Program-made: the position numbers and the translations under genes | From: an uncultured Clostridia bacterium | Lineage (GTDB): Bacteria; Bacillota; Clostridia; TANB77; CAG-508 | Length of the DNA stretch: 64,000 nucleotides | Direction of reading: 5' to 3' | Assembly: GCA_944386365.1 (NCBI GenBank) | Contig: CALXAT010000001.1 | Coordinates: 213,028-277,027, forward strand | The notes under the pieces: model-generated | Database searches by the model: none | What the model was told of the DNA's origin: nothing | The model's input: the letters and a program-made list of their open reading frames with translations, nothing else | Shown: positions 58,069 to 59,652 of the stretch, piece after piece | Layout: each line of letters starts with the position of its first letter | Numbering within the stretch: the first letter of the stretch is position 1

Positions 58069-59013
58069 TTATATTTCTTCTCCTTTCGTTTTTCTTTCTT
58101 CTTTTTCTGTGCCTTTAATAGCTTCTTTTACTGCCCTTTTAAAACTCTCGTCATCCTCATACTCTGGTAGTGGATATTTTTCCTCCAACAATTTTATTGG
58201 TTCCATTCGCTTTTTTAATTCCTCTGCATCAATTACTCCAGAAGAATGAGAATCTCTTAATTTACAGACACTTTCCAAAAAAATTTGGCTATTTTCTGAA
58301 ATCAAAAATGGATTTTCTGTAAGAATATGTTCTGATAATGAAATATATTGATTCCCTGATTTTACTAAAAAATTATCTCCTATAATCAAATGCATTTTTA
58401 ATTTTTTTATTGAATTTTTAAAAACTTCTGGATATCTTTTTATATATACATTTACTTGGTTTTTAGTTATATTAGTAGACCAATTATCAAATATATCACA
58501 CATTGGTTCTAATTTTCTTTCTACATCATTTGTCATAAATCTTGGGTCTCTTAAAATCATATGAATAACATTTTCTTTTGTAATGTATCCTTTATCTTCT
58601 GGCTCAATTCCTTCATTTCTCTTTTGGATAAACTGGAATATCTCCACTAGTTTTATTGCGAATGTATCTTTTGCCATAGTTGTATGTGGATTTTTATTAA
58701 TAGATTGAAATATTGTTTCAATATCCTCATTAGTAATTCCTAATGATACCAATGTTTGTACAGCTTTTTTATAGTTTCCTTCTTTGTTTTCTTTTTTGAA
58801 ATTTTTAATACTTTTTCTATTTTTTCTAAAATTCGTATGTAATATTTTTTCAAATTCTTCTATCTGCTCATCTGGCAAAATTTCTAAGATTTTCTTTTTT
58901 AATGTTTTTCTATCAACGCCTAATTTTCTTGCTAATGAGCTAATAGATTGTCCTTTCATAATTTTATTTTTGCAATCAATTAATCTATCATTATTTAACT
59001 CTACTTTATCCAT
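58069..59013 (-). CDS. Hypothetical lysine-rich protein with N-terminal HTH
   Basis: HTH-like …KGQSISSLARKLGVDRKTLKKKI…. Start placed at ATG 59013, with GAAGGGA upstream. Its stop abuts the mutS ATG. Confidence 0.55.
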   Translation of the reverse strand: MDKVELNNDRLIDCKNKIMKGQSISSLARKLGVDRKTLKKKILEILPDEQIEEFEKILHTNFRKNRKSIKNFKKENKEGNYKKAVQTLVSLGITNEDIETIFQSINKNPHTTMAKDTFAIKLVEIFQFIQKRNEGIEPEDKGYITKENVIHMILRDPRFMTNDVERKLEPMCDIFDNWSTNITKNQVNVYIKRYPEVFKNSIKKLKMHLIIGDNFLVKSGNQYISLSEHILTENPFLISENSQIFLESVCKLRDSHSSGVIDAEELKKRMEPIKLLEEKYPLPEYEDDESFKRAVKEAIKGTEKEERKTKGEEI

Positions 59014-59043
59014 ATAACGTCCCTTCAAAATCTTCTTTTCATT

Positions 59044-59652
59044 TTATTCTTTTTCTTGTTCCTCTTCTATTTGTTGTTCTACACGTTTTAATTGTCTTCT
59101 ATAATGATTTATCAAATTTGCATTTTGCTGACTTTTTTTACCTTGTTCTAAATCTTGTAATCTTTTTAAAAACTCTTCTCTACGGTTTTTTAATGAATTT
59201 TGTGTTGACACAGGTGTTTGCTGTTGGAATTCTTCACAAACTTCTTGTATTATTTTAGCGTCTAATTCTTCCCCTTTTTTTAAGGAACAATATCTCTCAT
59301 ATATGTCATGTAATTTTGGGTTCGTTTCTTTTATTTCTGCAAATTTTCTTTGAATTGTCCTTTTGGTAATTCTATATCTGCTTGCCAAATTGCTTTGTGA
59401 AGTTTTTTCAATAATTGATTCTCTCATTAATTGTTCAAAATCAATTTCTTTAACGTCACGTGGTCTATATGGATGCATAGACAAAAAACGTTTTGCAATT
59501 TCTTTTTTATCTTCTTTGTGATTTAGCTCATTTACTTTACTGTACAATGTATCTAAACCTACACCCTTTTTTTTACATTCCTTTTTTAAATTAACTTTTT
59601 CACCTTTTTTATTTAGCATTTGAATAAATGATTCCCATTCTATATCATTCAT
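59044..59652 (-). CDS. Hypothetical lysine/glutamate-rich protein with HTH-like segments
   Basis: 202 aa; …SNLASRYRITKRTIQRKF… HTH-like. Its start overlaps the miaB stop by 8 nt. Confidence 0.55.
   Translation of the reverse strand: MNDIEWESFIQMLNKKGEKVNLKKECKKKGVGLDTLYSKVNELNHKEDKKEIAKRFLSMHPYRPRDVKEIDFEQLMRESIIEKTSQSNLASRYRITKRTIQRKFAEIKETNPKLHDIYERYCSLKKGEELDAKIIQEVCEEFQQQTPVSTQNSLKNRREEFLKRLQDLEQGKKSQQNANLINHYRRQLKRVEQQIEEEQEKE

What the first reader, a model, noticed from the sequence alone, without database searches (positions are those of the whole stretch)
58069..59652. Two uncharacterised Lys/Glu-rich HTH proteins embedded, translationally coupled, between miaB and mutS
The miaB stop overlaps the start of a 202-aa ORF. 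A 314-aa ORF follows 30 nt later, and its stop abuts the mutS ATG. Both proteins carry short HTH-like segments (…LARKLGVDRKTLKK… / …LASRYRITKRTIQRKF…) and long charged helical regions. They belong to no family I can name. Their operon position is where RicA/YmcA-type or coat proteins sit in other Firmicutes, so they are candidates for lineage-specific repair or sporulation regulators.
Basis: partly seen in the sequence, partly recalled or inferred. Interest (0 to 1): 0.5.

Follow-up and report, generated by a model that had tools for sequence, protein, structure and literature searches.

The report
Bacterial mTERF-like protein between miaB and mutS
Two small genes wedged between the housekeeping genes miaB and mutS are real; one encodes a bacterial version of the "mTERF" nucleic-acid-binding repeat proteins that are generally held to exist only in animal and plant organelles, and in a small group of uncultured gut Clostridia its family was found only at this spot.

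Summary
On the minus strand, miaB, a 202-aa ORF-A, a 314-aa ORF-B and mutS form one gap-free unit. ORF-A starts 8 nt inside miaB, a 30-nt spacer follows, and the ORF-B stop abuts the mutS ATG.

- ORF-A is an unclassified double-HTH protein with a helical hairpin.

Both families are very small: 44 clusters at 50% identity among 1.84 billion for ORF-B. All 30 loci read place them in the miaB-mutS slot, which holds A, B, A+B, or three genes. Both evolve 5-8 times faster than their flanks but under purifying selection (dN/dS 0.12-0.34). They lie behind a conserved sigma-A-type promoter, and no phage, plasmid or defence matches were found.

They are most likely sequence-specific nucleic-acid-binding proteins, by analogy with the DNA-binding 'pTERF' proteins reported in 2024. 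A sporulation or repair role is not supported. I rate this a new variant of a known kind, of moderate interest.

The parts
61090..61118 (-). Sigma-A-type promoter of the operon: TTGCAA, 17-nt spacer, TAAAAT
   Evidence: Consensus scan. The same TTG(C/A)AA-N17-TAAAAT element, inside a conserved ATATAATAAAAT block, lies upstream of miaB in 15 of the 16 related loci aligned, including distant ones (L022, L027, L029); L028, where a GIY-YIG gene precedes miaB, shows no clear copy. Function is inferred, not shown.
59645..61072 (-). miaB, the tRNA-i6A37 methylthiotransferase and first gene of the unit. The true start is probably the GTG at 61066.
   Evidence: Pfam UPF0004 + Radical_SAM + TRAM. NCBIfam TIGR01574 equivalog, 532.5 bits. 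A conserved GTG lies 7 nt after GGAGG, whereas the ATG is not conserved.
59044..59652 (-). ORF-A, 202 aa. A double-HTH protein with a C-terminal helical hairpin. Its ATG overlaps the miaB stop (ATGAATGA).
   Evidence: AF2 mean pLDDT 86. 22 homologue clusters. dN/dS 0.12-0.34.
59476..59646 (-). ORF-A residues 3-59: first small helical, HTH-like unit
   Evidence: AF2 helices 3-16, 22-28, 33-44 and 50-59. Conserved N21 L22 K23 C26 and L33 T35 L36 Y37. Weak hhalign match to the N-terminal HTH of an ORF-B paralogue.
59455..59475 (-). ORF-A residues 60-66: conserved HPYxPRD linker between the two HTH units
   Evidence: H60 (>=90%), P61, Y62 and P64 (invariant), R65 and D66 (>=90%) in alignment A2. 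Non-helical in the model.
59287..59439 (-). ORF-A residues 72-122: second HTH, containing the ...LASRYRITKRTIQRKF... segment
   Evidence: 18 of 20 family members match Pfam HTH_11 (best E 2.6e-7) and 16 of 20 match HTH_psq. hhalign to the ORF-B HTH gives E 4.6e-4.
59050..59205 (-). ORF-A residues 150-201: antiparallel helical hairpin, a probable oligomerisation element
59014..59043 (-). 30-nt spacer with the ORF-B ribosome-binding site (GAAGGGA)
   Evidence: Sequence. Retained intact in L001 after the ORF-A deletion.
58069..59013 (-). ORF-B, 314 aa. A bacterial HTH + mTERF-like repeat protein.
   Evidence: Pfam mTERF 28.5 bits, above the 23.1-bit threshold. AF2 mean pLDDT 81.5. dN/dS 0.15-0.26.
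58879..58992 (-). ORF-B residues 8-45: N-terminal HTH (...SISSLARKLGVDRKTLKK...)
58744..58872 (-). ORF-B residues 48-90: one long basic helix (pI 9.6)
   Evidence: AF2 helix 48-90. Charge count.
58249..58731 (-). ORF-B residues 95-255: mTERF-like helical repeat. Three clear motifs are centred on P157, P195 and P235. R132 and N188 are invariant and N133 is conserved in at least 90% of the family.
58159..58176 (-). ORF-B residues 280-285: conserved Y-P-L-P-E-Y peptide in an otherwise variable C-terminal region. It may be a docking motif.
   Evidence: L282 and Y285 are invariant, and P283 and E284 are >=90% conserved, in A1. 'YxLPEY' is retained in distant members. Any role is an inference.
58078..58086 (-). 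AAAGGAGAA: codons K310-G311-E312 of ORF-B, which also form the Shine-Dalgarno sequence of mutS
   Evidence: K310, G311 and E312 are invariant in A1. Sequence. In A-only loci many ORF-A tails end in KGEE or EGxE instead.
55441..58068 (-). mutS, last gene of the unit. Its ATG directly follows the ORF-B stop.
   Evidence: Pfam MutS I-V. NCBIfam TIGR01070/NF003810. No minus-strand terminator-like site anywhere between the miaB promoter and the end of mutS.

Best explanation
ORF-A and ORF-B are genuine, vertically inherited, fast-evolving nucleic-acid-binding proteins. They are restricted to a small clade of uncultured, low-GC gut Clostridia, and in every locus read they sit inside the miaB-mutS transcription unit.

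ORF-B is a bacterial mTERF-like protein. It has an N-terminal helix-turn-helix, a 43-residue basic helix, three to four canonical mTERF motifs, and a C-terminal tail carrying a conserved YPLPEY peptide. ORF-A has two HTH units joined by an invariant HPYxPRD linker, followed by a helical hairpin that probably mediates oligomerisation.

Both are made constitutively with MiaB and MutS. A conserved sigma-A-type promoter lies upstream of miaB. Translation is coupled at both ends: the ORF-A start overlaps the miaB stop, and the mutS ribosome-binding site lies inside the last codons of ORF-B.

The most likely activity is sequence-specific binding of double-stranded DNA, acting as a repressor or roadblock-type transcription factor. 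This is an inference, not a demonstrated result. It rests on analogy with the dsDNA-binding prokaryotic pTERF proteins and with MTERF1.

Shown here: gene reality, architecture, mTERF relationship, fixed position, co-transcription signals and dispensability of each gene. Inferred: nucleic-acid binding, DNA rather than RNA as the ligand, and the regulatory role.
For: mTERF relationship:
- Pfam PF02536 scores 28.5 bits, above the 23.1-bit threshold, for the window protein.
- 11 of 21 close members match mTERF, as do distant members P0056, P0087 and P0049.
- A profile of 24 diverse members hits human MTERF3 first among 177,635 PDB sequences (E 3.4e-6, four repeat registers), then the mitoribosomal protein mS93.
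- The motif signature is conserved: Pro at position 8, hydrophobic residues at 11, 18 and 25.
- Reversed and shuffled controls give nothing.

Fixed position:
- All 30 loci read place A and/or B between miaB and mutS.
- This includes members only 22-31% identical to ORF-B by tblastn.
- One slot (L021) holds three genes, one of them a clear 155-aa mTERF protein (41.1 bits, E 1.4e-10).

Real genes: dN/dS is 0.12-0.34, against 0.03 for mutS and 0.06-0.07 for miaB in the close set.

One transcription unit: a conserved promoter is present and there is no internal terminator.

Not mobile or defence-related: no PHROG, PADLOC, phage, plasmid or IMG/VR match.

DNA-binding precedent: pTERF1 and pTERF2, from gut Clostridia MAGs, bind specific dsDNA at nanomolar Kd (PMC11417379).

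The HTH-plus-basic-helix regions have pI 9.6-9.9.
Against: - No binding site, target gene or ligand was identified.
- The mTERF repeat region itself is not basic (pI 6.2).
- Eukaryotic mTERFs bind RNA as often as DNA, so the ligand is open.
- Shorter family members lack the HTH altogether, so the HTH is not essential to the family's function.
- Fixed position can result from vertical descent alone and need not mean a functional link with MiaB or MutS.
- Loci were retrieved through A or B homologues, so empty slots in the clade could not be seen.
Confidence: 0.6

Rival explanations
1. ORF-B, and perhaps ORF-A, is a physical partner or adaptor of one of its operon neighbours. It might be an RNA-binding helper that guides the SAM enzyme MiaB to tRNA or rRNA, as MTERF4 guides the methyltransferase NSUN4. 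It might fill the place that RicA (YmcA) holds after miaB in Bacilli. Or it might be a DNA-binding accessory of MutS.
For: - The first slot gene starts at or within the miaB stop in nearly every locus. Overlaps run from 8 to 20 nt, or the genes abut directly.
- The last slot gene carries the mutS ribosome-binding site. Coupling of this kind is common among complex partners.
- The association persists down to 22-31% identity.
- A conserved C-terminal YPLPEY peptide looks like a docking motif.
- In Bacilli the miaB-ymcA pair is conserved, and RicA serves RNA processing.
- mutL is not next to mutS in any locus read.
Against: - A and B are largely unrelated to each other, yet each can occupy the slot alone.
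- ORF-A was cleanly deleted in L001, while its miaB and mutS remain about 95% identical to the window's.
- Whole lineages lack B.
- A dedicated partner would be expected to evolve more slowly. Here dN/dS is 5-8 times that of the flanks.
- No interaction could be modelled.
Confidence: 0.2
2. This is the first reader's idea: lineage-specific sporulation or repair regulators with SpoIIID-like HTH proteins, sitting where cotE and ricA sit in Bacillus.
For: - hhalign of both HTHs to SpoIIID gives E about 9e-4.
- Foldseek lists SpoIIID and GerE weakly for ORF-A.
- Sporulation-type genes lie near related loci: Spore_YtfJ and a weak SpoIIIAH match.
- The positional analogy with B. subtilis holds.
Against: - No Pfam SpoIIID hit appears in any of the 41 members, even at E <= 1.
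- hhalign probabilities are only 23-25%.
- The only evident promoter is a conserved vegetative sigma-A type shared with two housekeeping genes.
- No sporulation-sigma promoter or repair motif was identified.
Confidence: 0.1
3. The two genes are selfish or accessory cargo in an integration hotspot: mobile-element remnants with transposase-type HTHs, or defence genes.
For: - Slot content is variable: A, B, A+B or three genes.
- The genes evolve fast.
- There are weak HTH matches to IS21 and ISL3 transposases and to NUMOD1.
Against: - There is no transposase, nuclease or recombinase domain.
- No hits in PHROGs, PADLOC, phage records, plasmids or IMG/VR.
- No repeats or tRNA flank the slot.
- Family distribution broadly follows the miaB and mutS trees.
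- Selection is purifying.
Confidence: 0.05

Closest known systems
Eukaryotic mTERF family (Pfam PF02536; human MTERF1, MTERF3, MTERF4)
   Different: ORF-B is bacterial, with no organellar targeting. It has only 3-4 motifs, against about 8 in MTERF1. It is fused to an N-terminal HTH and a long basic helix. It is encoded inside a housekeeping operon. The similarity is remote: no eukaryotic protein was recognised among the 44 hits of the profile search (only some were inspected, and the library carries no taxonomy).
pTERF1 and pTERF2, 'prokaryotic mTERF-like proteins' (Nucleic Acids Res 2024, PMC11417379)
   Same: These are mTERF-like repeat proteins from MAGs of uncultured gut Clostridia/Bacillota. 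They have been shown to bind specific dsDNA at nanomolar Kd. They are the best functional precedent.
   Different: pTERFs are near-identical tandem 35-aa repeats (3-11 units) that, according to the paper, lack the canonical P8 and leucine signature. ORF-B has divergent, non-tandem-looking motifs that keep the signature, plus an HTH. The paper text read here gives no genomic context. Sequence relatedness could not be tested because pTERF sequences were not retrievable.
SpoIIID (PDB 2l0k), sporulation transcription factor
   Different: There is no Pfam SpoIIID match. ORF-A and ORF-B are much larger, with extra domains, and sit in a vegetative-type operon.
RicA/YmcA of Bacillus subtilis (miaB-ymcA operon)
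   Same: It occupies the same genomic position directly after miaB. It is a small all-helical protein co-transcribed with miaB, and the functional link is likewise unexplained.
   Different: No sequence or profile similarity was detected. RicA works in the RicAFT complex with RNase Y and has no HTH or mTERF motifs.

Membership tests
mTERF (Pfam PF02536) | Score at or above the Pfam gathering threshold | tested here: met
   The window ORF-B scores 28.5 bits against 23.1. 11 of 21 close members match, best E 1.6e-7. P0056 scores 28.0 and P0087 24.6 bits. The 155-aa slot neighbour in L021 scores 41.1 bits. Reversed and shuffled controls give no hit.
mTERF (Pfam PF02536) | Repeated motif with Pro at position 8 and hydrophobic residues at positions 11, 18 and 25 | tested here: met
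   Three motifs are centred on P157, P195 and P235. Counts across the 24 diverse members, in motif order: P8 in 17/24, 17/24 and 8/21. h11 in 24/24, 23/24 and 24/24. h18 in 23/24 and 24/24 for motifs 2 and 3 (motif 1 is shifted by one residue). h25 in 18/24, 17/24 and 22/23.
mTERF (Pfam PF02536) | Superhelical all-alpha repeat fold similar to solved mTERF structures | tested here: inconclusive
mTERF (Pfam PF02536) | Nuclear-encoded eukaryotic protein acting in mitochondria or plastids | tested here: not met
   ORF-B is encoded in a bacterial operon between miaB and mutS. All relatives come from Clostridia MAGs or metagenomes.
mTERF (Pfam PF02536) | Binds DNA or RNA | not testable with these tools
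   Only inferred from architecture and charge.
pTERF (prokaryotic mTERF-like, PMC11417379) | Sequence homology to pTERF1 (MBQ3414883.1) | not testable with these tools
   Supplementary Table S11 is truncated and no sequence is held.
pTERF (prokaryotic mTERF-like, PMC11417379) | Near-identical tandem 35-aa repeat units, 3-11 copies | tested here: inconclusive
   ORF-B motifs are spaced 38-40 residues apart but are highly divergent. They are detected only through profiles. No formal tandem-repeat detection was run on the protein.
SpoIIID family | Match to the family profile or sequence over the HTH and C-terminal basic region | tested here: not met
RicA/YmcA (Com_YlbF) | Profile match to the family | tested here: not met
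   No such Pfam hit appears for either protein or any family member. No such NCBIfam hit appears for either window protein. No YmcA chain appears in the PDB profile searches. Only the position after miaB is shared.
   Not among the hits of ORF-A or ORF-B or the most frequent family hits. The HTH hits are generic (HTH_11, HTH_psq, HTH_28) and below threshold for the window proteins.
IS21/ISL3 transposases | HTH plus a DDE catalytic domain | tested here: not met
   There are only weak HTH-level matches: IS5376 IstA at E 0.005 and HTH_Tnp_ISL3 at E 0.008. No catalytic domain is present.

The most novel reading that the evidence does not exclude
The ORF-B family may be a true prokaryotic branch of the mTERF superfamily that works as a tethered nucleic-acid adaptor for its operon partners. 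This would parallel MTERF4-NSUN4: an mTERF protein docking a SAM-dependent RNA-modifying enzyme (MiaB), or MutS, onto specific nucleic-acid sites. Because it keeps the canonical Pro/Leu motif signature that the pTERF authors report pTERF1 lacks, it would then be the best bacterial model for the origin of organellar mTERFs, whether that origin is bacterial ancestry or transfer between gut eukaryotes and bacteria.
Probability: 0.15. Interest if true: 0.8.

Novelty: new variant of a known kind. Interest (0 to 1): 0.55.

Why it matters
mTERF proteins are key regulators of mitochondrial and chloroplast gene expression. They are still described as absent from prokaryotes, for example in a 2026 survey (PMC12977773). 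The only exception found is the 2024 pTERF report.

Here is a second, differently built bacterial mTERF-like family. It carries the canonical motif signature, is fused to an HTH, and in every locus read lies inside a housekeeping operon.

If confirmed, it offers:
- a tractable bacterial system for studying how mTERF repeats read nucleic acids;
- a data point on where the family came from;
- a new class of DNA- or RNA-binding modules from uncultured gut Clostridia.

It is also a clear example of a fast-evolving gene slot between two very conserved genes. That slot corresponds in position to the unexplained miaB-ymcA pairing of Bacilli.

Tried and rejected
- The Foldseek afdb50 library was unavailable, so no survey of AlphaFold DB relatives was possible.
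- Two metagenome (JGI) scans gave nothing for the HTH-less subgroup and one short A-only contig.
- The third word-indexed protein search, run with the diverse profile, added only P0081.
- The mobile-element and defence hypotheses were tested and rejected: PHROGs, PADLOC, phage and plasmid tblastn, IMG/VR.
- Rfam found no RNA family anywhere in the 64-kb window, so there is no riboswitch or leader explanation.
- No paralogues of A or B occur elsewhere in the window.
- ORF-A and ORF-B are not detectably homologous beyond the HTH (hhalign probability 33%).
- SpoIIID membership was rejected.
- pTERF sequences could not be retrieved.
- The L006 ORF-B dN/dS value came from a mis-framed coordinate and is discarded.
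- A regex for the MutL ATPase motif found nothing in the window. This is not conclusive.
- No convincing operator-like palindrome was identified near the promoter by eye.
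Full report
**Observation**

The four genes lie head to tail on the minus strand.
- miaB occupies 59645..61072. It has UPF0004, Radical_SAM and TRAM domains and scores 532 bits on the TIGR01574 equivalog.
- ORF-A (202 aa) occupies 59044..59652. Its ATG overlaps the miaB stop in ATGAATGA.
- A 30-nt spacer (59014..59043) carries a ribosome-binding site.
- ORF-B (314 aa) occupies 58069..59013.
- mutS occupies 55441..58068. Its ATG is the base after the ORF-B stop. It has MutS domains I-V and matches TIGR01070.

The quoted HTH peptides and the charged helices are present. 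The only correction is that the miaB start is more likely the conserved GTG at 61066.

**Are they real genes?**

Each ORF has about 20 homologue clusters among 5.8 billion sequences. ORF-B homologues are 55-91% identical and ORF-A homologues 44-100%.

Pairwise Nei-Gojobori estimates are as follows.

| Gene | dN/dS |
|---|---|
| ORF-B | 0.15-0.26 |
| ORF-A | 0.12-0.34 |
| mutS (close comparisons: L002-L006, L018) | about 0.03 |
| miaB (close comparisons: L001-L006) | 0.06-0.07 |

Both are thus protein-coding and under purifying selection, but 5-8 times more relaxed than their neighbours. The L006 ORF-B value is a framing error and is ignored.

**What ORF-B is**

Pfam places ORF-B in mTERF (PF02536) at 28.5 bits against a gathering score of 23.1. 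Several further results agree.
- 11 of 21 close relatives also match mTERF, as do distant relatives P0056, P0087 and P0049.
- An exhaustive profile search of 1.84 billion cluster representatives found only 44 relatives.
- A profile of 24 diverse relatives (alignment A3) was searched against all PDB sequences. Human MTERF3 came first (E 3.4e-6, aligned in four successive repeat registers). The Tetrahymena mitoribosomal protein mS93 came second (E 9.7e-4).
- The AF2 model (pLDDT 81.5) is all-alpha.
- Three motifs centred on P157, P195 and P235 carry the classical signature quoted in the literature: Pro at position 8 and hydrophobic residues at 11, 18 and 25. This signature is well conserved across the family.
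- Reversed and shuffled sequences give no mTERF hit, so composition does not explain the match.

Shorter family members of 250-270 aa lack the HTH.

**What ORF-A is**

No curated family matches ORF-A above threshold. The family as a whole does match generic HTH models: HTH_11 in 18 of 20 members (best E 2.6e-7) and HTH_psq in 16 of 20.

The AF2 model (pLDDT 86) shows the following.
- Two small helical HTH-like units at residues 3-59 and 72-122.
- A highly conserved HPYxPRD linker between them (P61, Y62 and P64 invariant; H60, R65 and D66 >=90%).
- A C-terminal helical hairpin at residues 150-201.

**Genomic context**

This is the most informative result. Every locus that could be read carries these families between miaB and mutS.

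| Slot content | Loci |
|---|---|
| B only | 8 GTDB species-representative MAGs of uncultured Clostridia (L001-L008) |
| A+B | L018-L020 |
| A only | L009-L017 |
| A only | L030 (a 1,084-bp contig that begins just before ORF-A, so only the mutS flank is seen) |
| Distant B relatives, 22-42% identical by tblastn | L022/L023 |
| Distant B relatives | L024/L025 |
| Distant B relatives | L026-L029 |
| Three genes | L021 |

The L021 slot holds three genes.
- A 335-aa B paralogue (hhalign probability 96%, E 5e-9).
- A 155-aa protein with an unambiguous mTERF match (41.1 bits, E 1.4e-10).
- P0081.

L001 has miaB, mutS and ORF-B 91-95% identical to the window's. It retains only ATGAATGATATAGAA|TAA. 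This is a clean deletion of ORF-A between two AGAAT microhomologies.

Crude NJ trees of MiaB and MutS place B in the outer lineages. A-only lineages fall in between, and B or A+B in the crown group. B therefore looks ancestral, A looks like a later arrival, and each has been lost in some lineages.

One caveat applies. Loci were retrieved through A or B homologues, so empty slots would not have been seen.

**Expression signals**

A promoter-like element TTG(C/A)AA-N17-TAAAAT lies just upstream of miaB in the window (61118..61090). It is conserved in 15 of the 16 related loci aligned, often directly after the rpmE terminator; L028 shows no clear copy.

No minus-strand terminator-like site lies anywhere between that promoter and the end of mutS.

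The first slot gene nearly always starts at or within the miaB stop. The last slot gene encodes the mutS Shine-Dalgarno sequence in its final codons. In the window this is the invariant K-G-E (AAAGGAGAA, 58078..58086), and comparable G-E tails occur in A-only loci.

This points to constitutive co-expression with two housekeeping genes, not to a sporulation-specific programme.

**Exclusions**

Neither protein matched anything in the following searches.
- PHROGs
- PADLOC
- 50,697 phage records or 72,556 plasmids
- IMG/VR

There is no Rfam family in the window and no paralogue elsewhere in the window. Mobile-element, defence and RNA-element explanations are therefore unlikely.

**Comparison with what is known**

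The literature still treats mTERFs as absent from prokaryotes (PMC12977773). The one exception found is a 2024 paper describing 'pTERF' proteins. These are tandem 35-aa repeat proteins from gut Clostridia MAGs that bind specific dsDNA at nanomolar Kd. According to the authors they lack the canonical Pro/Leu signature (PMC11417379).

ORF-B differs from pTERF in three ways.
- Its motifs are divergent, but they keep the canonical signature.
- It carries an N-terminal HTH.
- It has a fixed operon context, which the paper text read here does not describe.

Whether ORF-B is homologous to pTERF1 could not be tested, because the sequences were not retrievable.

In B. subtilis, miaB (ymcB) is co-transcribed with ymcA/ricA. 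That pairing is conserved in Bacilli and its functional link is unexplained (PMC2952846). The slot described here is positionally equivalent, but its occupants are unrelated to RicA.

**Mechanism**

Best supported (about 0.6 for identity plus nucleic-acid binding; about 0.45 for the specific dsDNA-regulator reading): ORF-B and ORF-A are sequence-specific nucleic-acid-binding proteins made constitutively with MiaB and MutS. They probably act on dsDNA as repressors or roadblock-type regulators.

Main rival (about 0.2): an adaptor or partner of MiaB or MutS, in the manner of MTERF4-NSUN4 or RicA.
- For: the tight coupling, the persistence of the association, and the docking-like YPLPEY peptide.
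- Against: A and B are interchangeable, each can be lost, and both evolve fast.

The sporulation or repair-regulator idea (about 0.1) rests only on weak SpoIIID resemblance.

**Verdict**

The feature is a new variant of a known kind: a bacterial HTH-mTERF family plus an unclassified double-HTH companion, both found only in the miaB-mutS operon in the 30 loci read. Interest is moderate, at 0.55.

Noticed in passing
L001:5940-6000 compared with window 59014-59652: L001 keeps only the first five codons of ORF-A fused to its stop (ATGAATGATATAGAA|TAA). This is a precise deletion between two AGAAT microhomologies, leaving the spacer and ORF-B intact.
   Followed up: yes
L021:320-2846: In a more distant relative the miaB-mutS slot holds three genes: a 335-aa ORF-B paralogue, a 155-aa protein with a strong Pfam mTERF match (41 bits), and the 340-aa P0081. 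This suggests tandem expansion of mTERF-like genes in the slot.
   Followed up: partly
L001 about 8664 and L008 about 8652 (mutS codons 573/574; window equivalent about 56350): Two MAGs that are not sister lineages in the MiaB tree carry the same +1 insertion with a Q-to-G change (TTTGCTCGGAGTAGCA or TTTGCTCGGAATAGCA, against TTTGCACAGGTGGCA). It splits mutS into 573 + 302 aa. This could be a shared artefact, recombination, a real mutS inactivation or a recoding site.
   Followed up: partly
window 61066-61072: The listed miaB ATG (61072) lies 1 nt after GGAGG and is ATA in most relatives. A conserved GTG two codons downstream (61066) is the likely real start.
   Followed up: yes
window 54456-55355 (minus strand): A 260-aa ORF lies directly downstream of mutS. 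It has a perfect TTGACA-18-TATAAT promoter with a TG extension (55355..55326) and a terminator-like hairpin (54489..54456). It has no Pfam, PHROG or PADLOC match. It is 99% identical in L001 and 69% in L005, and absent from the other loci.
   Followed up: partly
window 61179-61874 (plus strand): A 231-aa ORF of no known family is transcribed divergently from miaB, between rpmE and miaB. The upstream sequence of L001-L003 and L005 suggests the same gene is there. L006 and L008 lack it; in L008 rpmE directly precedes the miaB promoter.
   Followed up: partly
all loci L001-L029, downstream of mutS: mutL does not follow mutS in any locus of this clade, and the gene after mutS differs between lineages (NFACT, DUF1064, DUF2207, NUDIX and others). 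Whether the clade has mutL elsewhere is unknown. A regex for the MutL ATPase motif found nothing in the window.
   Followed up: partly
window 51251-53884 (minus strand): A Bro-N domain protein (51837..52703), an AAA_33 kinase-like protein (53300..53884) and an HD-domain protein (51251..51811) lie a few kb downstream of mutS. They may be a remnant of a mobile or phage-derived island.
   Followed up: no
L030:32-460: In a JGI metagenome contig, ORF-A is shortened to 142 aa by an internal deletion (roughly residues 115-170) but still sits directly upstream of mutS.
   Followed up: partly
L028:2180-2488: A free-standing 102-aa GIY-YIG protein lies immediately upstream of miaB in one distant relative.
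   Followed up: no
P0078 (2225 aa), residues about 1851-1917 and six other stretches: A large surface-type protein (lectin, YDG and Big_3 domains) matches ORF-B profile positions 129-193 seven times. The ORF-B segment ...EDKGYITKENVIHMI... also resembles EF-hand or dockerin-type loops (PDB 3mse, E 5e-4). This is probably a short-motif coincidence.
   Followed up: no
window 1-64000: No Rfam family reaches its gathering score anywhere in the 64-kb window: no tRNA, rRNA, riboswitch or leader.
   Followed up: no
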